From sequence record NC_049815.1: a stretch of DNA of 51,012 nucleotides. One strand, given 5' to 3'. Numbering within the stretch: the stretch's first letter is position 1; each line of letters opens with the position of its first letter. Of the stretch, positions 6,084-45,298 are shown one piece after another. A program made the position numbers and the translations under genes. Source of the DNA: Escherichia phage tonn. The notes below the pieces were generated by a model. The model was not told the DNA's origin. It saw nothing but the letters and a program-made list of their open reading frames with translations, and searched no databases.

Positions 6084-6153
6084 TAAATCACCTTACCAGA
6101 AAAATAGCTCGTTAGAATGCGATTGAGGCGCTCTAACGGCTATGCGTTTTTAA

Positions 6154-6468
6154 TTAAAAACCGTCGAGAATCTCTCGAAAGTTGTTTAGCGTCTTAACTT
6201 TGGCCTTATCCCACGTTACAGATCCTGCATCTTCCCACGGGGAACCAGGGCCGTGATTTGTCATATCATCAATCAAGCAAGAGATCTCATCAATAACAAC
6301 ATCTTTTAAATGCTCGCGGTACTCAATATCTTCTACAGGCTCAAAAGCCTGAATGACACCGCCTAAAACCTGTTGCTGTGCCTTTGCCTTGTCCAAATCA
6401 TCATGGATGAAACGATGCTCTTTCTTGTTCTCGTTAGTTCCGATTTGGTAGTAGTGAATATAAATCAT
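6154..6468 (-). CDS. hypothetical protein
   Basis: 104 aa ORF in early arm. Confidence 0.5.
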   Translation of the reverse strand: MIYIHYYQIGTNENKKEHRFIHDDLDKAKAQQQVLGGVIQAFEPVEDIEYREHLKDVVIDEISCLIDDMTNHGPGSPWEDAGSVTWDKAKVKTLNNFREILDGF

Positions 6469-6716
6469 AAACCTGATTCCTCCATAGTCTCGTTTATGCG
6501 CTTCCAGTCTTCAATAGCTTTCTGGATGTATCCAGCCTCGTTGCGCCATGCGGCAGTTTCTGCCGCTCGCGTTGGTGCTGGTGTAAGTTGACGGCAAATC
6601 TGATCCGCAACTTCACCCATAGCGCCTTCCATACCAAAGCCAGAAATGTAGCGCATCACTTGATATGCTTGCTTCTCTGAAAGGTTAATCGTGATCATTC
6701 TTCTACTACCTCGCAT
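6465..6716 (-). CDS. hypothetical protein
   Basis: 83 aa ORF, 4-nt overlap with neighbour. Confidence 0.5.
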   Translation of the reverse strand: MRGSRRMITINLSEKQAYQVMRYISGFGMEGAMGEVADQICRQLTPAPTRAAETAAWRNEAGYIQKAIEDWKRINETMEESGL

Positions 6717-6964: not shown

Positions 6965-6986
6965 TTTTAACAAAAAGTGCTATTAA
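6965..6986 (-). promoter_or_regulatory. 21-bp intergenic motif copy
   Basis: TTTTAACAAAAAGTGCTATTA on + strand = motif on - strand; contains stop of upstream gene. Confidence 0.5.
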
Positions 6987-9621: not shown

Positions 9622-9776
9622 CGAACGCATAACGCTGTTACATCCTTCCCACTATCTGACATGTGGAGAATAACTTGCTTTCGCGCTTCCTGGCATCTTG
9701 ATTCGCCGTGGAACTCCTGCGACTCAATAGCTGCGGAGTTGTAACTTGTGACAAAGATTAAAAGCAACCAAGTCAT
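9615..9776 (-). CDS. small ORF (53 aa) with N-terminal hydrophobic segment, ATGA-coupled to phosphatase gene
   Basis: manual translation MTWLLLIFVTSYNSAAIES...; stop is the TAG of the motif copy, as for many neighbouring genes. Confidence 0.3.
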   Translation of the reverse strand: MTWLLLIFVTSYNSAAIESQEFHGESRCQEARKQVILHMSDSGKDVTALCVRK

Positions 9777-10327
9777 TTTAAACACTCCACGCCGTGAGAT
9801 TGCAGGTGAGCGTGCGGCTTGTCGTATTCAGTGACCTGATAGGTTGTGATCCCCAGGCTGCGGAAGTGCTTAACAACGTTCGGAGAATCGTCAAAGGCGC
9901 AAACAATATTGTCCAGGCCAATATCGCGCAAGGCTTCTTCTTTAATAACCGTATCCTTTCGGTTGTCCTCCTGGCGGCGCATGATGATTTCGTCAAACTT
10001 CACGCCGTTCTCATTCAACCATTTGCATGTTTCATAGCGCACTTCGTCGCTGCGTCCGGTCAAGATGACGATGGCAAATCCCGACACCCACAAACCGTTA
10101 ATAACCGCGATCGTGCTTTTAATCGGTGAATCTCCGGCGGCGGCCCTGTTAAATTCGCTCCACGATTCCGTAAGGTGTAAGTTTTCAGTTGGCAGCAAAT
10201 GCAAACGATGCGATCCGTCCGATAGTGTGCCGTCCAGGTCAACGATAACAATCGGCTTGCTGGTGATTAATTCGTACTTCTTGCCCCATAGTTCGAAAGT
10301 GTATTTTTTCATTATAAAACCTATCAA
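9773..10327 (-). CDS. HAD-family phosphatase, T4 Pnk 3'-phosphatase domain-like
   Basis: 184 aa; DLDGTL motif I and C-terminal RQEDNRKDTVIKEE / AFDDSPNVV blocks closely resembling the T4 polynucleotide kinase phosphatase domain (from memory). Confidence 0.7.
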   Translation of the reverse strand: MIGFIMKKYTFELWGKKYELITSKPIVIVDLDGTLSDGSHRLHLLPTENLHLTESWSEFNRAAAGDSPIKSTIAVINGLWVSGFAIVILTGRSDEVRYETCKWLNENGVKFDEIIMRRQEDNRKDTVIKEEALRDIGLDNIVCAFDDSPNVVKHFRSLGITTYQVTEYDKPHAHLQSHGVECLK

Positions 10328-10545
10328 TTAAAATGGATTTGCTTGTATTCTATTTCATCTGCCAGATCATTTAACTTATCTGCCAGCTTGCGCACTTGGT
10401 CAACGGTAAGTATCGACCTAAAATCCGGCCTACGCCCACCTTCAAACGTGCCATCAATAAAAACTCGATCGCCAAACTTGTATACATCAATCGCGTCGCC
10501 GTGGTTATCAGTAAACCTGTGCTTGACGCGCTTATTTGTTTTCAT
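10324..10545 (-). CDS. hypothetical protein
   Basis: 73 aa ORF. Confidence 0.5.
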   Translation of the reverse strand: MKTNKRVKHRFTDNHGDAIDVYKFGDRVFIDGTFEGGRRPDFRSILTVDQVRKLADKLNDLADEIEYKQIHFN

Positions 10546-10777
10546 CTTTCACTTCCTCAAATTCCGCGTCTGTAATCTGCTCAAACTCGGCAACTACGTT
10601 TTCAAACGCAACGATCTCTGTTCCATTCTCGCCGTTAAGGTAAAACTTGTATCCGTTGTTGCAGTGAACATGATAAGAGTGACCATCTCTTGTGTCCTTC
10701 TTGCCCTGGTACACCTTGCCAGGCGTGAAGAATGGTCTATTGCTCTTAACGCAAAGAAAATTGTTTTCAATGATCAT
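10532..10777 (-). CDS. small protein, member of intragenomic paralog family
   Basis: 81 aa; shares F.PG..Y...FLNG..GT...AEFE pattern with 10774..10995. Confidence 0.5.
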   Translation of the reverse strand: MIIENNFLCVKSNRPFFTPGKVYQGKKDTRDGHSYHVHCNNGYKFYLNGENGTEIVAFENVVAEFEQITDAEFEEVKDENK

Positions 10778-10995
10778 TGTTTCACTTCCTCAAATTCAGC
10801 CATTACCATAGCGTGTGCCATAACCTTAGTGCCTTCGCCGCCGTTCAGGAACATGCGATGCCCCTTACTATTGCTCACGTAAAAAGATCCGGTTGATGAT
10901 TTCAGTTTTTTCGCTGTATAGATTTCGCCAGGCTTGAACATACCAGAGCAAGCATAGTTAACGGAAACGCATTTCATCTTCTTTTTAATGTACAT
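10774..10995 (-). CDS. small protein, paralog of 10532..10777
   Basis: start moved to ATG at 10995 (GAAGGAG RBS); listed longer ORF would run into the promoter cassette. Confidence 0.5.
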   Translation of the reverse strand: MYIKKKMKCVSVNYACSGMFKPGEIYTAKKLKSSTGSFYVSNSKGHRMFLNGGEGTKVMAHAMVMAEFEEVKQ

Positions 10996-11049
10996 CGTTT
11001 TATCTCCTTCGTTGAAAGTAGGGCCATTATACCTGGCCCCACATTTGAG

Positions 11050-11071
11050 TTTTAACAATTCGTGCTATTTA
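11050..11071 (-). promoter_or_regulatory. 21-bp intergenic motif copy with TATAAT 21 bp downstream inside hairpin GGGGCC..GGCCC
   Basis: motif match; TAA of motif is stop of upstream gene. Confidence 0.5.
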
Positions 11072-11962
11072 CACTTTGACCTTCCACTTAACCATCGTTC
11101 CGCGCTTAATGCTGATCTCACCTGCAATCGTCCGGTTTTTATAGCCGCCGTAGTGAAGCAGAAGGATAACAACGTCATCATGAATCTCGATCGTCTTTGG
11201 TGTTGCCGTTACTTCATACCAGGTGCCGTCATCAAGCCGGACTCCTTTTAGAGTGGCTGCAACTGGCATATCTTCAATTGCGCCCTGCGTTACGATTTCT
11301 TGATTTGCAAATGCGCTCTTGTCAATGCGCCAGCCTCCAGGCGCTTTCATTTCGGCAGCCGCTTTGTGGATCTCATCGCCAATGATTTTTTGAATTGACG
11401 TCTTACCGCCGCCGAATGGAGTTTCTCCAAATAAGTGTTTTGTAATATCTTCCACGTAATACACTTTATCTTTTTCGTTGTGCGGATTGTATCTATTGTG
11501 ACCGTTGACAAAGAAATCAACTTTCAACTCTGATTTCGTACCATCGCTATAAACGCCATTGTCGCGCGATGTGAATCGAATCGTTGAATTACCAACCGTG
11601 TAGAACGTGATCGGATACTTGATATTGTCAACACTTAAGCACCACAGCTTTTTATAGTCGCATGTTTTCATCTCGACCATCGGAATCTCTGCGCGTTCCG
11701 GTGAGCGCACTGGCAACACCTGGCCTTTATATGGCTTGTAGTGGAAGCTGGTATATCCTGGCATTGCATAGCCATAGTCTTTAAGTGCGTTGTACTGCGT
11801 ATTGTGCGCATCAATAAAGTGTTCAATCTCCATGTCTGATGGGCTTAGTTTGTCGCTATTCATATCAACCTTATGGCATGTTTTTTCATCGGTAAAAATG
11901 TAATGACCAATGCCGCGAGATTCGAAGGTGATCGGGAATTTAATGTCAGCAAGTTTTAACAT
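11069..11962 (-). CDS. hypothetical protein (297 aa)
   Basis: long ORF with RBS GGAGAAAG; no recognisable motif. Confidence 0.55.
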   Translation of the reverse strand: MLKLADIKFPITFESRGIGHYIFTDEKTCHKVDMNSDKLSPSDMEIEHFIDAHNTQYNALKDYGYAMPGYTSFHYKPYKGQVLPVRSPERAEIPMVEMKTCDYKKLWCLSVDNIKYPITFYTVGNSTIRFTSRDNGVYSDGTKSELKVDFFVNGHNRYNPHNEKDKVYYVEDITKHLFGETPFGGGKTSIQKIIGDEIHKAAAEMKAPGGWRIDKSAFANQEIVTQGAIEDMPVAATLKGVRLDDGTWYEVTATPKTIEIHDDVVILLLHYGGYKNRTIAGEISIKRGTMVKWKVKV

Positions 11963-12041
11963 GGTGCTTTCTCCTGATTGGTTTTGTGGGCGACGCCGTG
12001 CCGCCCTATGTGATTTATTATGCCTGGTTATCGTTTTCGAG

Positions 12042-12063
12042 TTTTAACAAAAAGTGCTATTTA
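12042..12063 (-). promoter_or_regulatory. 21-bp intergenic motif copy with CATAAT 22 bp downstream
   Basis: motif match. Confidence 0.5.
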
Positions 12064-12246
12064 GAATTTGACCTCTTCCACAAGCTCAACCATCTTGTAA
12101 CCAAGACGATAAGAGTCACCGAACAACAAGATCCCCATAAATTCATCGTGGATTATTGACTCCTTGCCAACCGTTCTAAGCTCGCCGTTGTGAATCACAG
12201 TATCGCCGATCTTGATTTCTGACTTATGGACTAGTTTCGTTTTCAT
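12061..12246 (-). CDS. hypothetical protein
   Basis: 61 aa ORF. Confidence 0.45.
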   Translation of the reverse strand: MKTKLVHKSEIKIGDTVIHNGELRTVGKESIIHDEFMGILLFGDSYRLGYKMVELVEEVKF

Positions 12247-12261
12247 CTATTCACCTGCTAA

Positions 12262-12447
12262 TTAAAAGAACGCTACATAGTTTGCAATGCCTTTGGCGTC
12301 ATCGTTTGGCATTGCTTTTACAGCCAGGTCATAACCTGCCTCTACCTTCTGCTTTGCTGTTTCTTCGTTGTAGCCCCAGATAACCAGGATTTTAACTACG
12401 TTTTCTTTGTTCAGGACTTTAAGGTCTTTGGTGATGCGACGTGCCAT
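12262..12447 (-). CDS. hypothetical protein
   Basis: 61 aa ORF. Confidence 0.45.
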   Translation of the reverse strand: MARRITKDLKVLNKENVVKILVIWGYNEETAKQKVEAGYDLAVKAMPNDDAKGIANYVAFF

Positions 12448-12504
12448 TTTTGTTTCCTCAATCTCGTTTCGATGAGGCTATTATGCCAGGCTTTGCGCCT
12501 GGCG

Positions 12505-12526
12505 TTTTAACAAAAAGTGCTATTTT
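12505..12526 (-). promoter_or_regulatory. 21-bp intergenic motif copy with hairpin CCAGGC-n5-GCCTGG and CATAAT
   Basis: motif match; leader contains CATCGAAACGA. Confidence 0.5.
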
Positions 12527-12792
12527 GTCTCTACGGTCATATGTTCTGTCTTCGTGCCTTTGCCATTGCTTTTCGACACTTCCCAGCTAGTCGTGCCCTT
12601 ACAGTTGGTGAAGTAAACAGTGCGATCGTCATAGAATCGGTAAACGGTGCAACCGTCAGCGGTGAATAGCTCCCTTACGCTGTAGTCATCGCCAGGGTTA
12701 GCCATCTGCACATTGCCAACATGCGCGCCATCTTCTTTGCATCCGGTCAGGAATGCCATTGCCGCCAAAACGCTGATTAATGCCTTTTTCAT
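12520..12792 (-). CDS. lipoprotein (signal peptide with lipobox LTGC)
   Basis: MKKALISVLAAMAFLTGC N-terminus; ATGA overlap with upstream gene; second gene of the consensus-promoter operon. Confidence 0.55.
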   Translation of the reverse strand: MKKALISVLAAMAFLTGCKEDGAHVGNVQMANPGDDYSVRELFTADGCTVYRFYDDRTVYFTNCKGTTSWEVSKSNGKGTKTEHMTVETK

Positions 12793-13250
12793 TGCTCTTC
12801 CTCTTTGATGATTTCGCGGATCATATCCTGGTAGCGGCTTACGCCCTCGCAAGCCCCAGCCAGTTTATCCCCTTCCAGGTCAACGATATTCGGGATTGCT
12901 GCCAGTAAGCGATCGGCAAACTTTTTGATCGCCCTTGCCTTGATTGCTGGCAATTCTTCGGGTGTGATGATTTTCCTTTTCGATTCGCGCACCATGCGGA
13001 AAACGTAAAATTTATCATCTTCCGTTTCCTCTACCTTGATGCTTACCCGACCTGCGGCCCTTACTTCTGGAACGCGGTTGATAATGGTCCGGCTGTAGGA
13101 TGAACTGCGCGTGATCTTGTAGCAGTCGTCACCGCTTAACATTCCGGCCAGGTCAATTAGTGACATTTTATACTCTTCAATATCGCCACTAGCCAGGCGG
13201 CGACCAAGCTCGCGAAGCCAATCGCAATAGTCCTTAGTGGTCTTCTGTTC
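12789..13250 (-). CDS. hypothetical immediate-early protein
   Basis: ATG at 13250 with GGAGGAAAGGAA RBS, just downstream of consensus promoter. Confidence 0.5.
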   Translation of the reverse strand, partial: EQKTTKDYCDWLRELGRRLASGDIEEYKMSLIDLAGMLSGDDCYKITRSSSYSRTIINRVPEVRAAGRVSIKVEETEDDKFYVFRMVRESKRKIITPEELPAIKARAIKKFADRLLAAIPNIVDLEGDKLAGACEGVSRYQDMIREIIKEEEQ

Positions 13251-13284
13251 CATTTCCTTTCCTCCAGTTGTTGACTGTTGGCGC

Positions 13285-13312
13285 ATTATAAAAGCTATTT
13301 GGTGCGTGTCAA
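13285..13312 (-). promoter_or_regulatory. consensus sigma70 promoter TTGACA-16-TATAAT (leftward early promoter)
   Basis: perfect -35 (13312..13307) and -10 (13290..13285) hexamers on - strand with 16-bp spacer. Confidence 0.6.
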
Positions 13313-13419
13313 TGTTTTTGTTGTATTCAAAACGTTACCAATATCGAAAAACTACAAAATCATGCGCAAGTTATTGATTTCAGGGCTGTTATTTTTCTGT
13401 TCACGCTGTTAACGCAATC

Positions 13420-13630
13420 CGCCGGAAAAAGTATATATACATATGCAATCCGCCGCGCGCGCAACTATCCATATATACCCACACACAACCACACCATAAC
13501 CAACAAAAAGCACTGTAACAGTGAGAACAAAAAGAAAACATTATAGATATATATAAATAAATAATCTTTATTTTCAATGTATTATAAAGGATTTTTTTTG
13601 TTTTTTCCGTTTTCGATACACCGGAAAACC
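13420..13630. repeat. AT-rich noncoding element, copy A (homologous to 34036..34280)
   Basis: shared ordered blocks CGCCGGA..TATATACATA, CACAAACAACCAAAACCACAA-like CA-rich run, ATAAATAAATAA, TCGATA(A)CACCGGAAAAC. Confidence 0.55.
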
Positions 13631-13748
13631 GCGCGGAAACACGCCGCCTGAAATCGGTAACAGGGGTGAACAAAAGACAACAACCGCTGACAGCCAGGCG
13701 GAAAAGTGAGGCAAGAGGGGAAGGTTTCACTATCTCCCCTGCAACCAA

Positions 13749-13840
13749 TGATTAAACGTGATTACTTTTCTCATCAAATTTGCAAAGGCAATCATCATTT
13801 TGACGAGATTTGATTACGAATGATTACTTTTGATTATTTC
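13749..13840. repeat. iteron-like direct repeats of TGATTAC(TTTT) (5 copies)
   Basis: TGATTA at 13749, 13759, 13811, 13821, 13831. Confidence 0.5.
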
Positions 13841-13865
13841 GATCGCAATCCTGGCGATAACCGTC

Positions 13866-13886
13866 AAATAGCACTTTTTGTTAAAA
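13866..13886 (+). promoter_or_regulatory. 21-bp intergenic motif copy (rightward) with TACATT 22 bp downstream
   Basis: exact AAATAGCACTTTTTGTTAAAA; leader CATCGAAACGAAC at 13917..13929. Confidence 0.5.
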
Positions 13887-13946
13887 CCCAGGCCGCCTGA
13901 TCGGGTACATTACACACATCGAAACGAACCGCTCAGGAGATAGTAA

Positions 13947-14219
13947 ATGAACATCAGCAAAACCACTTTCAATTTCGCTAAGCGTCACGGTCTGGATCTG
14001 ACTGTTGAAGATTTTGGCGATGTTCTGCAACTCTGCATATGGGAAGCAGATAACGATTGCGAGTGGCTTTGCTCTTATCGCATTAACTACGATTGCTTGA
14101 CCTGGCACTGCAATATCTATCTGCCGCAAGAAGTGAAAGAAGAATTGCCAGCGACTATCAACAACGAAGTTTTCTTGCGCCAGGTGCTGAAATTTATCAG
14201 TAAGGAGATCAAGAAGTAA
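13947..14219 (+). CDS. hypothetical protein (Cys-rich)
   Basis: 90 aa; GGAGATAG RBS. Confidence 0.5.
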   Translation: MNISKTTFNFAKRHGLDLTVEDFGDVLQLCIWEADNDCEWLCSYRINYDCLTWHCNIYLPQEVKEELPATINNEVFLRQVLKFISKEIKK

Positions 14220-14485
14220 TGGCGGTGATTACCGAAAATGATTTGGATCTGGCGGAGGCGTTTTGCAGGGCCGCCAGGGCTAACCTGGATGTGACCACTA
14301 AATTTCTTCCGGCGCGACCACTCTTTTCGTGTGCGCCCGTGAATAAACCGACTCGCGTAATGATCGTGATTGAAGGTGATGGCCTGTACGCTGAAAAGAC
14401 GTTCCACATCAGCAACATTAAGGGCCGTGCTGATTTTATCAATGATGTTTGCTTATTGCAGGAGAAGAAAAAATGTTGGATGTGA
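14219..14485 (+). CDS. hypothetical protein
   Basis: 88 aa; TAATG coupling with upstream gene. Confidence 0.5.
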   Translation: MAVITENDLDLAEAFCRAARANLDVTTKFLPARPLFSCAPVNKPTRVMIVIEGDGLYAEKTFHISNIKGRADFINDVCLLQEKKKCWM

Positions 14486-14682
14486 TCAAGAAAGCACATG
14501 AGATGGGTATGGATGTTTCAATCTGCGACGCTTCCGCGCGTCACCCGTCAGCGCCTGAAAATATGGTTGTTGTCATCGTGCATAATCACCGCTATGAGTG
14601 CCGTGCGATGTTTGAGAAGCAGGATAAAGAGTATCAACGCTGTTTTATCAACGAAGTTTGCGATCTGTATGGGAGGATCTGA
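14473..14682 (+). CDS. hypothetical protein
   Basis: start set to ATG 14473 (AGGAGAAG RBS). Confidence 0.45.
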   Translation: MLDVIKKAHEMGMDVSICDASARHPSAPENMVVVIVHNHRYECRAMFEKQDKEYQRCFINEVCDLYGRI

Positions 14683-14683
14683 A

Positions 14684-14896
14684 ATGTTCAAGAAATTGTT
14701 ATGGCTGTACCGCTCCAGGCGCAATAAGGGATATTGCATGGGCACGGAAAGGAATCTTGACCGCGCTTATAAATACTGCCTGTTGTTGCTCGCCAGTCTG
14801 CCGGAAAACAGGAAGGAATATATTGCACTGCGAGAAATAACAATGCGGATATATAGTTACCGCAATAAACTATACGTCTTTAAATCTTTACGATAA
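14684..14896 (+). CDS. small basic protein
   Basis: ATG 14684 with GGGAGGA RBS; 70 aa. Confidence 0.4.
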   Translation: MFKKLLWLYRSRRNKGYCMGTERNLDRAYKYCLLLLASLPENRKEYIALREITMRIYSYRNKLYVFKSLR

Positions 14897-14908
14897 GGAG
14901 TAATAACC

Positions 14909-15172
14909 ATGAAAATTAATGCACCTATTCCAGTTAAGCGCAAAGCACGTTTGCTCAATAACGGGTGTTACGCCCTGCGGCCTGCATTTAAGGATCGCAC
15001 ATTTCCGGTTATCGTTAACGTGTCTCACGTAAGCCGTAGCGGAAATCTGGTATTCGTTAAAGGTGAAGATCTGGCGGCGCTTGGATTCTATGGCGGTGTT
15101 CACGGCGAACCGCTCGGATTCTGGCTTGTGGATCCGTTAACTGGAGAGCGTGAAATCGAATTCCTGGACTAA
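14909..15172 (+). CDS. hypothetical protein
   Basis: 87 aa, TAAGGAG RBS; stop TAA is first triplet of motif copy. Confidence 0.5.
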   Translation: MKINAPIPVKRKARLLNNGCYALRPAFKDRTFPVIVNVSHVSRSGNLVFVKGEDLAALGFYGGVHGEPLGFWLVDPLTGEREIEFLD

Positions 15173-15191
15173 ATAGCACTTTTTGTTAAAA
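15171..15191 (+). promoter_or_regulatory. 21-bp intergenic motif copy with TATAGT 22 bp downstream in hairpin loop
   Basis: exact motif. Confidence 0.5.
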
Positions 15192-15247
15192 ACGATGCGC
15201 TGCTGATTGGTATAGTAAGCGCATCGACAACAAACGAGGATTTAAAG

Positions 15248-15445
15248 ATGGAAAATCAGGTTGATGTTAAAGTTGTTAAGCGCGACAAGTCTCACGAAAA
15301 AGGTTTGTTTAAGAAAGGTGCTGAAATCACCATTGACCTTGATGATATGGAGGCGTACCACTCAGGGCTAACTTGGAATGTGCGCAAATGTGAAAACGGC
15401 CTGTTCAAGTTAAATGGCTTTGAAACATACATGGAGATCATCTAA
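15248..15445 (+). CDS. small protein (possible paralog family member)
   Basis: 65 aa. Confidence 0.5.
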   Translation: MENQVDVKVVKRDKSHEKGLFKKGAEITIDLDDMEAYHSGLTWNVRKCENGLFKLNGFETYMEII

Positions 15446-15657
15446 TGGCAAAGCAATTAAAAATTAAATGCGTAGAAACTTATGACTCAACTTGGAGATT
15501 TACGCGCGGAAAAGAATACCCGCTAATGGGAAATCTCAAAGAAGATCCTCATGTAATTTCAGATAATGGCCTTCACCTTTATTTAATGGAATACAACGAT
15601 GGATATATTGGTGCTGGTGTTCCAGGTCATAAATTTAAGATGAAAAATAAGAAATGA
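15445..15657 (+). CDS. small protein (possible paralog family member)
   Basis: 70 aa; pattern FTRGKEY...NG..LYL similar to 10532..10777. Confidence 0.5.
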   Translation: MAKQLKIKCVETYDSTWRFTRGKEYPLMGNLKEDPHVISDNGLHLYLMEYNDGYIGAGVPGHKFKMKNKK

Positions 15658-16383: not shown

Positions 16384-17093
16384 TGTATAAAGGTTTAATA
16401 TTCTCCCTATTTGATGGATCTGGTAAAGCAGTTAAAGATTGGGCTGATAATGGATATAAGTGCATTTGCTTTAATGCTGACGGCGGCGATCACGGTGATT
16501 ACCAGTCAGTGCGCATACAGCATGAGAATATCGAATACGTTAACGTCTGGATTGATGATGCTTTTTATGTTAAGGCAATCAATAATGAGTTGGGCAATCC
16601 TGATTTTATTATGGCGTTCCATCCTTGCACCGACCTTGCAAATAGCGGATCTCGCCATTGGGCCAAAAAACGCCTTGAGAATCCATCGTTCCAGGATGAG
16701 GCCGCCGACACTTGCAGAATCGCGGCTGATATAGCTGATTATTTCGGTGTTCCTTACATGATCGAAAATCCGGTTGGCAAGTTGTCAACGTTATGGCGTA
16801 AGCCTGATTATACGTTCCATCCGTGCGATTACGCTGGCTATCTGCCGGAAGATGATAAACATCCCGACTTCCCTGATATTATTCCGGCGCGTGATCGCTA
16901 TTTTAAGAAAACGTGCCTCTGGACTGGCAACGGCTTTGTTATTCCTCCACGCGCTTTAATCCTGCCGAAAGAGGAAGACAAAGATAATCCAGGCTGGGCC
17001 AAAACTGGAGGCAAGTCATCGCGCACAAAGATGATCCGCTCCCTCACTCCGCGCGGATTTGCTCGCGCCGTCTTTGAGTCAAACTCAAAATAG
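16384..17093 (+). CDS. DNA cytosine-5 methyltransferase-fold protein, atypical and without a normal target recognition domain
   Basis: 236 aa from ATG 16384 (GAGG RBS); FSLFDGSG (motif I-like), HPC-T at residues 80-83 (motif IV-like), ENPVG (motif VI-like), PARDRYF (motif VIII-like) at M.HhaI-like spacing. Confidence 0.55.
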
Positions 17094-17108
17094 CACTTTT
17101 TGTTAAAA
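17088..17108 (+). promoter_or_regulatory. 21-bp intergenic motif copy with hairpin GCCAGGT-n6-ACCTGGC then CATAAT
   Basis: exact motif; TAG in motif is stop of methyltransferase-fold gene. Confidence 0.5.
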
Positions 17109-17162: not shown

Positions 17163-17549
17163 ATGAATGTTATCTGTAATGAAACCAACGTATTGATGAA
17201 AGGCCGTTTTAAAACGGTTTATCAGAAGATTGCAGGAAGTGATGATGTGATCGAGGTGGAAGAGTTCCAGGTTAAGACGCTTGTTAAGGGTAGCCGCTGG
17301 CTTCCAGCAAACCGAGATGATTACCGCGCCATTAACACAAAAACCGTTCTTTGCACGTTTGTAGATCATAACATGCCGTGCAAAAAGCACTTTAAGCAGG
17401 GCAAGCGATACCAGATCGAGAAAGGGCGACCGCTTGGAAGCGTTGCGGGTTATGTTTTTGATGAGTGCGGCGACCGCTGGAACCTGTACCGTGAAGAGGT
17501 AGGATTCTCTGCTGGCGGCTGTTATCTGTTTGAGGGCAAATATCTGTGA
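17163..17549 (+). CDS. hypothetical protein
   Basis: 128 aa; GGAG RBS. Confidence 0.5.
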   Translation: MNVICNETNVLMKGRFKTVYQKIAGSDDVIEVEEFQVKTLVKGSRWLPANRDDYRAINTKTVLCTFVDHNMPCKKHFKQGKRYQIEKGRPLGSVAGYVFDECGDRWNLYREEVGFSAGGCYLFEGKYL

Positions 17550-17767
17550 TAAACAGTGAAAACCGTTACAAAGTAACGCATTCTACCACAAAGACTTTCA
17601 AGCCTGGCGATATAGTCAGGCCCATCAAAAAAACGGCGGTAGGTTGGCTGATTGGTTTTTCATATCATAAGGCGCTTTACTTTACGTTTAAGGATGGGAT
17701 TACAGGAGAATGCTACAGCGACCGCCAGCCTGATCGACTTCTGGTTGCAATAGAGCGGATCAAATAG
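17546..17767 (+). CDS. hypothetical protein
   Basis: 73 aa; ATGA-type overlap upstream. Confidence 0.5.
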   Translation: MINSENRYKVTHSTTKTFKPGDIVRPIKKTAVGWLIGFSYHKALYFTFKDGITGECYSDRQPDRLLVAIERIK

Positions 17768-23168: not shown

Positions 23169-23189
23169 TTTTAACAAAAAGTGCTATTA
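23169..23189 (-). promoter_or_regulatory. 21-bp intergenic motif copy with hairpin and CATAAT; leader CATCGAAACGAAC
   Basis: motif match. Confidence 0.5.
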
Positions 23190-45277: not shown

Positions 45278-45298
45278 TTATAGCACTTTTTGTTAAAA
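45278..45298 (+). promoter_or_regulatory. 21-bp motif copy in antisense orientation within the tail module
   Basis: TTATAGCACTTTTTGTTAAAA on + strand while flanking genes are on - strand. Confidence 0.35.

What the first reader, a model, noticed from the sequence alone, without database searches (positions are those of the whole stretch)
10532..15657. Dispersed family of small paralogous early proteins
Adjacent genes 10532..10777 and 10774..10995 are clearly paralogous (F.PG..Y..KK....Y.V...G..(F/Y)LNG..GT...A..V.AEFE). Similar patterns recur in 15445..15657 (FTRGKEY...NG.HLYL) and more weakly in 15248..15445 and 17546..17767, so the family spans both early arms on opposite strands. Multi-copy small early proteins are often host-takeover or anti-defense factors.
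Basis: seen in the sequence. Interest (0 to 1): 0.45.

Follow-up and report, generated by a model that had tools for sequence, protein, structure and literature searches.

The report
Multi-copy Gp54-fold small phage proteins
This T1-like coliphage carries at least five copies of one tiny beta-barrel protein domain, the rare fold of Gp54, a phage protein known to set off the bacterial CapRel immune sensor; what these proteins do for the phage is still unknown.

Summary
The window is a Warwickvirus (Drexlerviridae), 99% identical to phage tinuso, and all five ORFs are annotated genes there. The adjacent pair A (10532-10777) and B (10774-10995) are clear paralogs (z about 21). Outside that pair, single-sequence alignments do not beat shuffles, except A-E marginally. 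Profiles and predicted structures still rescue most of the claim.

- **Sequence link:** hhalign gives E 9e-6 to 1.5e-4; the best reversed-profile decoy is 6e-3.
- **D (15248-15445):** a Pfam PF25180 Gp54 homolog, 100% identical to the SECphi27 copy.
- **E (17546-17767):** unresolved.

The genes form three overlapping tandem pairs (B-A, D-C, g17163-E), each behind a copy of a phage promoter motif, on both divergent arms. Function is untested. The one characterised relative triggers CapRelSJ46, but this exact D sequence was reported not to.

The parts
10532..10777 (-). Gene A, 81 aa, acidic (pI 5.1). Gp54-type six-stranded beta-barrel plus an acidic C-terminal helix. It is the A-type copy, found only in a subset of Warwickvirus genomes.
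10774..10995 (-). Gene B, 73 aa, basic (pI 9.6). Paralog of A and the widespread single-copy type in Drexlerviridae. Its stop overlaps A's start (ATGA).
   Evidence: A-B z about 21; hhalign 100%. 98.6% identical to the SECphi27 copy. Junction sequence read.
11026..11065 (-). Promoter-like element in front of the B-A pair: motif GCACGAATTGTTAAAA, then 18 nt, then TATAAT.
   Evidence: It matches consensus only; function is not shown.
15176..15191 (+). Copy of the phage-wide motif GCACTTTTTGTTAAAA in front of the D-C pair.
   Evidence: Exact match. The window has 18 copies against 1.4 expected. A TATAGT hexamer lies 19 nt downstream.
15248..15445 (+). Gene D, 65 aa. Homolog of Gp54 of phage Bas11 (Pfam PF25180) and identical to the SECphi27 copy.
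   Evidence: PF25180 E 1.7e-38, 130.7 bits against a cut-off of 27. PDB 9axb E 4.4e-17. 65/65 identical to SECphi27, 53% to Gp54 of Bas11. It carries V7 and A25 at the positions where A7V and I25V abolish CapRel activation.
15445..15657 (+). Gene C, 70 aa, basic. Gp54-fold barrel whose start overlaps D's stop by 1 nt. In the loci examined it is always found directly after a Gp54 homolog.
17093..17108 (+). Copy of the motif GCACTTTTTGTTAAAA in front of the g17163-E pair.
   Evidence: Exact match, with CATAAT 19 nt downstream.
17349..17549 (+). C-terminal domain (residues 63-128) of the 128-aa protein encoded at 17163-17549.
   Evidence: hhalign to A: 83% probability, E 8.6e-6; to B: 75%; to C: 72%, E 3.3e-5. 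It merges into one HMM with A/B and C with no reversed decoy below E 0.7. Present in 50 loci. In more distant phages the N-terminal half is replaced by another barrel-like domain, which the merged HMM recruits in at least L052.
17546..17767 (+). Gene E, 73 aa. Candidate member only. Its start overlaps the g17163 stop (GTGA).
   Evidence: A-E pairwise 6/3000 shuffles. hhalign local 15% probability, E 1.8e-3, 24 columns. In global mode it is the reciprocal best partner of A/B, end to end over 66-67 columns, but E is 0.01-0.04. Merged-family HMM E 1.5 against a best decoy of 0.79. Adjacent to g17163 in 34 of 37 loci.

Best explanation
The window encodes at least five copies of one small domain of about 65 residues: a six-stranded beta-barrel with a long beta1-beta2 loop, the fold of Gp54 of phage Bas11. 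The copies are A, B, C, D and the C-terminal half of the 128-aa protein at 17163-17549. E is a possible sixth.

They are arranged as three overlapping (probably translationally coupled) tandem pairs, B-A, D-C and g17163-E. Each pair sits behind its own copy of a phage promoter motif, on the two divergent arms that flank the 13.3-13.9 kb control region. The simplest history is repeated tandem duplication and fast divergence, with cassette-like gain and loss between related phages.

**Shown here:**
- A-B paralogy.
- Profile-level homology of A/B, C and g17163C.
- D's membership of the Gp54 family.
- The A and C models match the Gp54 crystal structure better than anything else in the PDB.

**Inferred (mechanism):** these are stand-alone protein-binding modules made from the phage's promoter-proximal accessory arms. 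They probably engage host proteins the way Gp54 engages CapRelSJ46. There the barrel opens, beta1 and beta6 become disordered, and beta2-beta5 plus the beta1-beta2 loop clamp a beta-sheet of the target. The loop carries the F-x-x-G motif that recurs at the equivalent position in A, B, C, D, E and g17163C. Different paralogs would have different targets, whether host takeover or counter-defence.

This exact D protein is identical to the SECphi27 homolog that was reported not to trigger CapRelSJ46.
For: **Identity of the window:** 99.1% identical to phage tinuso, a Warwickvirus.

**Sequence links:**
- A-B.
- A/B-C-g17163C cluster: hhalign 51-83% probability, E 8.6e-6 to 1.5e-4. Among the other family pairs the next best are A-E at 15% and unrelated pairs at 8% or less. 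The best of 138 reversed-profile decoys is E 5.9e-3.
- An independent alignment pair gave 88.7% probability, E 2.6e-6 for A/B against C.
- A, B and C all hit phrog_10169 at matching profile positions.
- The merged HMM recruits further Drexlerviridae proteins with no decoys.

**D as Gp54:** PF25180 E 1.7e-38 and PDB 9axb E 4.4e-17.

**Fold:**
- The models were made without templates. The Gp54 entry was released in November 2024.
- The BFVD search with the A model returns A/B relatives and then other small Drexlerviridae proteins. Two NBD2 hits match in length and organism the proteins (NBD2_09, NBD2_19) that the sequence HMM also picks.

**Arrangement:** gene overlaps and upstream motifs, D-C and g17163-E adjacency, and patchy distribution with 25-45% identity where the helicase is about 80% identical.

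**Binding mode and motif residues G24/I25:** PMC11578894.
Against: - No sequence method links D to A/B/C (hhalign probability below 4%, HMM E 11). Common ancestry of D with the others therefore rests on predicted fold, size, motif position and adjacency.
- The AF2 alignments were shallow (7 and 6 sequences) and the C model is only moderately confident (pLDDT 74.6).
- I could not superpose the A and C models on each other.
- E and g17163C have no structure prediction.
- Nothing here tests binding, timing of expression or any phenotype.
- The one known activity in the fold family is being sensed by a defence protein, not inhibiting one, and four of five tested Gp54 homologs lack even that activity.
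- The exhaustive search of 1.84 billion representatives found only eight small relatives of A/B. There is therefore no informative fusion or bacterial context to lean on.
Confidence: 0.6

Rival explanations
1. These are independent small SH3-like beta-barrels with no common ancestry between the Gp54 family (D) and the A/B-C-g17163C family. On this view the shared F-x-x-G and N-G turn motifs reflect what any tiny barrel needs, and the fold match is convergence or a bias of the predictor toward compact barrels.
Confidence: 0.2
2. Only A and B are related. On this view the resemblances to C, D, E and g17163C are chance matches of short motifs among many small, beta-rich ORFs, which is the refutation the first reader proposed.
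For: Single-sequence Smith-Waterman scores outside the pair are within shuffle range: A-C 100/3000, A-D 158/3000, B-C 277/3000, C-D 1660/3000. Family alignments are shallow (Neff about 1.5-3), which can inflate hhalign scores.
Against: All six pairwise links among A, B, C and g17163C are 40-fold or more better than the best of 138 reversed-profile decoys and than every unrelated family pair. Two differently built alignment sets agree. An external PHROG profile is hit by A, B and C. The merged HMM recruits no decoy. Fold searches agree.
Confidence: 0.07
3. The domains are nucleic-acid-binding barrels (like Sm, KOW, Tudor or cold-shock folds) that act on phage or host DNA/RNA rather than on proteins. 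An example would be accessory factors of the adjacent helicase, methylase or polynucleotide kinase genes.
Against: A and D are acidic (pI 5.1, 5.6). The only structure of a family member in complex shows protein-protein binding. No match to any nucleic-acid-binding Pfam or NCBIfam family at E<=1.
Confidence: 0.15

Closest known systems
Gp54 of Escherichia phage Bas11 (JohannLBurckhardt): Pfam PF25180 'Phage antiviral trigger protein Gp54', PDB 9axb/9erv (Zhang et al., Nature 2024, PMC11578894)
   Different: A, B, C, E and g17163C do not match PF25180 at all. A carries an extra acidic C-terminal helix. g17163C is a domain of a larger protein. D differs from Gp54 of Bas11 at A7V, I25A, Q47K and W53F. 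Its exact sequence (SECphi27 Gp19) was reported not to activate CapRelSJ46.
SH3 domains, including the stand-alone DUF7244 SH3 protein of the Drexlerviridae lysis module (PMC13164509)
   Different: SH3 domains have five strands and a 3-10 helix, not six strands. There is no Pfam match. DUF7244 sits next to the lysis cassette, not in these arms. The similarity scores lie far below the Gp54 match.
Ocr of T7, as a model of a small non-essential phage protein that both inhibits one defence and triggers another (cited as an analogy in PMC11578894)
   Same: Small, non-essential, promoter-proximal phage protein sensed by a defence system. It is the template for the speculation that Gp54-like proteins are counter-defence factors.
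   Different: Unrelated fold (a helical DNA mimic). No inhibitory activity has been shown for any Gp54-fold protein.

Membership tests
Gp54 family (Pfam PF25180) | Sequence match to the PF25180 model above its gathering score (27 bits) | tested here: met
   Met for D only: 130.7 bits, E 1.7e-38, full length 1-65; PDB 9axb E 4.4e-17. A, B, C, E and g17163 gave no PF25180 hit at E<=1, so they are not members of the Pfam family as currently defined.
Gp54 fold (PDB 9axb): six-stranded beta-barrel with a long beta1-beta2 loop | Structure superposes on 9axb better than on any other known fold | tested here: met
Gp54 fold (PDB 9axb): six-stranded beta-barrel with a long beta1-beta2 loop | The same fold for E and for the g17163 C-terminal domain | not tested
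   The structure-prediction cap (2 jobs) was used on A and C. g17163C is linked by profiles only. E shows only weak, colinear similarity.
Gp54 as a CapRelSJ46 trigger | Direct binding and activation of CapRelSJ46, with dependence on A7, G24 and I25 | not testable with these tools
   From the literature: homologs from SECphi27, Bas5, Bas8 and Bas10 do not activate, and A7V or I25V abolish activation. D is 65/65 identical to the SECphi27 homolog and has V7, G24 and A25. It is therefore expected to be a non-trigger; that is an inference.
A/B-C-g17163C sequence superfamily (PHROGs 9122, 10169, 14152, 3249, 2684) | Mutual profile-profile similarity above decoy level, and a shared N-terminal pattern: K-C-[VT] strand, then F-x-x-G-x-x-Y | tested here: met
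   Met for A, B, C and g17163C: hhalign E 8.6e-6 to 1.5e-4 against a best decoy of 5.9e-3, and the merged HMM gives E 1e-20 to 1e-27 for these four window proteins. Inconclusive for E (E 1.5 against the merged HMM; local hhalign 15%). Not met for D (E 11).
SH3 domain clan (including DUF7244) | Pfam match to an SH3-clan family, or an SH3 domain as the best structural neighbour | tested here: not met

The most novel reading that the evidence does not exclude
The Gp54 fold may be a diversifying 'metamorphic binder' scaffold. On this reading, T1-like phages keep four to six rapidly evolving copies per genome, and each copy opens its barrel to clamp a different host or defence protein by beta-sheet augmentation. 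Sensors such as CapRel would have evolved to exploit this shared binding mode. The invariably adjacent C paralog might partner, mask or back up Gp54, which would make the D-C pair a functional unit in the arms race.
Probability: 0.15. Interest if true: 0.7.

Novelty: new member of a known kind. Interest (0 to 1): 0.45.

Why it matters
Gp54 is one of the few phage proteins whose direct recognition by a bacterial immune sensor is understood at atomic level. Even so, it is described as an orphan of unknown function with a very rare fold.

This analysis indicates that the same genomes carry several more copies of that fold, one of them always next to Gp54. That turns an orphan into a family with natural variants. 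Three questions become testable:
- Do the paralogs trigger CapRel homologs or other sensors?
- Do they have host targets?
- Does redundancy among them explain why gene 54 is dispensable?

It also gives a structural annotation to several 'hypothetical protein' families (PHROGs 9122, 10169, 14152, 3249, 2684) that are present across Drexlerviridae, including phages of the BASEL collection.

Tried and rejected
1. **Pairwise Smith-Waterman with shuffles.** Only A-B, and marginally A-E, exceed chance. This method is too insensitive for the other pairs.
2. **Word-indexed protein searches for A, C and E.** They returned only close orthologs.
3. **Exhaustive HMM search with the A/B profile.** It found only eight small relatives, plus giant cadherin and propeller repeat proteins. 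Those were hit through a hairpin motif and I rejected them as spurious.
4. **An apparent strong link between g14909 (14909-15172) and D (99.5%).** This was an artefact of a fused ORF in locus L009 contaminating the profile. It disappeared after domain-trimmed rebuilding.
5. **The N-terminal half of g17163 as a degenerate barrel.** No support.
6. **Iterating the merged HMM to pull in D or E.** It failed: E 11 and 1.5 against a best decoy of 0.79.
7. **PDB sequence search with the A/B profile, and NCBIfam.** Nothing useful.
8. **The 127-aa BFVD hit from phage NBD2.** I expected it to be the g17163 ortholog. It matches NBD2_09 instead, another family member.
9. **Whether Bas11 has a C-type gene after gene 54.** It does not; gp53 is unrelated.
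Full report
**What the window is.** The region is 99.1% identical over 10 kb to Escherichia phage tinuso and about 98% identical to Tuinin, swan01 and relatives. These are all Drexlerviridae, Tempevirinae, genus Warwickvirus, which is T1-like. I call them:
- A: 10532-10777, minus strand, 81 aa
- B: 10774-10995, minus strand, 73 aa
- D: 15248-15445, plus strand, 65 aa
- C: 15445-15657, plus strand, 70 aa
- E: 17546-17767, plus strand, 73 aa

GC skew and gene orientation show two divergent arms that meet at about 13.3-13.9 kb.

I ran an all-against-all Smith-Waterman comparison of the 22 proteins of the two arms, with shuffles.
- A-B stands far out: score 119 against a shuffle mean of 24, z about 21.
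- Nothing else is clearly above chance. With 3000 shuffles per pair, A-C is reached by 100, A-D by 158, B-C by 277 and C-D by 1660.
- A-E is reached by only 6 of 3000, which is marginal after correcting for 14 tests.

At the single-sequence level only the adjacent pair is demonstrably paralogous.

**Profile level.** I collected about 57 Drexlerviridae loci around the helicase and around A and extracted 9183 ORFs. I then built domain-trimmed family alignments for every protein of the two arms and compared all pairs with hhalign.
- One cluster emerges beyond A-B: A, B, C and the C-terminal half (residues 63-128) of the 128-aa protein at 17163-17549 (g17163C). All six mutual links have 51-83% probability, with E 8.6e-6 to 1.5e-4.
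- The next pair is A-E, at 15% probability, E 1.8e-3, over only 24 N-terminal columns.
- Unrelated family pairs reach 8% at most.
- The best of 138 comparisons against reversed profiles has E 5.9e-3.
- An independent pair of alignments made from database homologs gave 88.7% probability, E 2.6e-6 for A/B against C.
- A, B and C each hit the external profile phrog_10169 over matching positions.
- Merging A/B, C and g17163C into one HMM and iterating on the ORF set plus reversed decoys recruited further proteins from more distant Drexlerviridae. These included an N-terminal barrel-like domain in at least one long g17163 ortholog (L052). No decoy scored below E 0.7.
- D and E were not recruited (E 11 and 1.5).

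My first pass also showed a strong link between the gene at 14909-15172 and D. That link came from a fused ORF in one locus contaminating the profile, and it vanished after trimming.

**What D is.** D matches Pfam PF25180, 'Phage antiviral trigger protein Gp54', over its full length (E 1.7e-38). It also matches PDB 9axb/9erv, Gp54 of phage Bas11 (E 4.4e-17). Zhang et al. (Nature 2024, PMC11578894) report the following:
- Gp54 of Bas11 is a 66-aa, non-essential protein of unknown native function.
- It directly binds and activates the fused toxin-antitoxin defence protein CapRelSJ46.
- On binding, the barrel opens.
- Homologs from SECphi27, Bas5, Bas8 and Bas10 do not activate CapRelSJ46.
- A7V or I25V abolish activation.

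D is 65/65 identical to the SECphi27 homolog and has V7 and A25. This exact protein has therefore already been tested and found not to trigger CapRelSJ46.

**Fold level.** AlphaFold2 models were made without templates from shallow alignments.
- A: pLDDT 86.3, pTM 0.76; six strands plus a C-terminal helix.
- C: pLDDT 74.6; six strands.

The rest of both hit lists is dominated by SH3 domains, the same neighbours the Gp54 authors found. So D, which no sequence method links to A/B/C, is linked through structure.

The conserved F-x-x-G element lies at the end of the beta1-beta2 loop in each protein: FTPG in A, FKPG in B, FTRG in C, FKQG in g17163C, FKPG in E and FKKG in D. Its glycine corresponds to G24 of Gp54, the CapRel escape position.

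A Foldseek search of viral models with the A model returns A/B relatives first and then other small Drexlerviridae proteins. Two hits from phage NBD2 have the lengths of NBD2_09 and NBD2_19, which the sequence HMM also identifies as members. I matched these by organism and length only, not by accession.

**E.** The evidence is consistent but weak.
- It gives the best pairwise score outside A-B.
- In global hhalign mode it is the reciprocal best partner of A/B, aligned end to end over 66-67 columns, with both the N-terminal motif and the C-terminal 'A-x-h-E-x-h-K' strand in register. The E-values are only 0.01-0.04.
- It has the same size as the others and overlaps the stop of g17163.

Membership is unresolved; I estimate about 35-40%.

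**Anatomy and distribution.**
- The genes form three tandem pairs with overlapping stop and start codons: B-A (ATGA), D-C (TAATG) and g17163-E (GTGA).
- Each pair is preceded by a copy of the 16-nt motif GCACTTTTTGTTAAAA, followed 18-19 nt later by a TATAAT-like hexamer. The window has 18 copies against 1.4 expected, always on the strand of the local genes.
- A perfect sigma-70 consensus promoter at 13312-13285 heads the leftward arm.
- Across loci, g17163C is present in essentially every locus that covers this block (50 loci), next to the helicase.
- E is present in most loci and is adjacent to g17163 in 34 of 37.
- D is present in about half of the loci.
- C is never present without D, and abuts it in 14 of 17 loci.
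- The A type occurs only in a subset of Warwickvirus genomes. SECphi27 lacks both A and C but carries a different C-like domain in a 135-aa ORF upstream of D.
- Where the helicase is about 80% identical, C and E orthologs are only 25-45% identical.
- Bas11 itself has g17163-like gp48, E-like gp47 and a weak A/B-like gp71, but no C.
- The distant NBD2 has at least four or five members.
- An exhaustive profile search of 1.84 billion representative proteins found only eight small relatives of A/B, so the family is essentially confined to this phage group.

**Mechanism.** Two things are shown: the family relationships, and the predicted fold of A and C. The rest is inference.

The only mechanistic data for this fold are from the Gp54-CapRel complex. 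There the barrel opens, and beta2-beta5 plus the refolded beta1-beta2 loop clamp a beta-sheet of the partner. I therefore propose that the paralogs are small protein-binding modules with different targets, produced from the accessory arms. This would fit their patchy distribution, fast divergence and differing charge: A and D are acidic, while B, C, E and g17163 are basic. The conserved g17163/E pair next to the helicase may have a more housekeeping role.

Nucleic-acid binding is a live alternative for the basic members. Counter-defence is plausible (polynucleotide kinase lies nearby, and the Gp54 authors speculate the same), but it is untested.

I put about 0.8 on 'A, B, C and D share the Gp54 fold and A, B, C and g17163C are homologous'. 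I put about 0.3 on the protein-binding, host-targeting mechanism.

**Novelty and verdict.** D is already known (PF25180). In the literature searches I ran I found no description of A/B, C and the g17163 C-terminal domain as remote relatives of Gp54, or of T1-like phages carrying four to six copies per genome. This is an extension of a known kind, not a new kind.

It missed one member, and one claimed member remains unproven. The functional interpretation remains a hypothesis.

Noticed in passing
window, 18 sites, e.g. 6965-6980(-), 12042-12057(-), 12505-12520(-), 13871-13886(+), 15176-15191(+), 17093-17108(+), 23169-23184(-), 45283-45298(+): The 16-nt motif GCACTTTTTGTTAAAA occurs 18 times (up to 3 mismatches) against 1.4 expected. 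It is always on the strand of the local genes, and where I read the downstream sequence a TATAAT-like hexamer follows 18-19 nt later. It looks like a phage-wide promoter class.
   Followed up: partly
window 13285-13312 (-): Perfect sigma-70 consensus promoter (TTGACA, 16 nt, TATAAT; 12/12 matches) heading the leftward arm, just upstream of the gene starting at 13253.
   Followed up: no
window 11069-11962 (-): The 297-aa protein looks internally duplicated (IKFPITFESRGIGHYIFTD near residue 7, IKYPITFYTVGNSTIRFTS near residue 114). phrog_7116 matches it in two stretches.
   Followed up: no
window 12520-12792 (-): A 90-aa protein with a lipoprotein-type signal and lipobox (MKKALISVLAAMAFLTGC) in the leftward arm. 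It could be a superinfection-exclusion lipoprotein.
   Followed up: no
L009 6378-6800 (-): In one related phage a deletion fuses the tail of the 14909-15172-type gene to the Gp54 homolog in one ORF. This produced a false family link in my first profile.
   Followed up: yes
L057 (SECphi27) 6100-6510 (+): SECphi27 lacks genes A and C. It has a 135-aa ORF upstream of its Gp54 homolog whose N-terminal part is C-like (30% identity), plus a 16-residue remnant of C's C-terminus downstream. This suggests cassette exchange at this spot.
   Followed up: partly
L011 (phage Tls) 1865-1945 (+): In Tls the corresponding arm is annotated with stp (activator of the host PrrC anticodon nuclease), close to polynucleotide kinase. 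The window has the kinase (9773-10312) two genes from A. I did not look for an stp-like peptide in the window.
   Followed up: no
proteins P0003, P0004 (orthologs of window 10532-10777): A 121-aa extended form of protein A, with about 40 extra C-terminal residues, is recorded on 275 contigs. It could be a lost stop codon or a gene-calling artefact.
   Followed up: no
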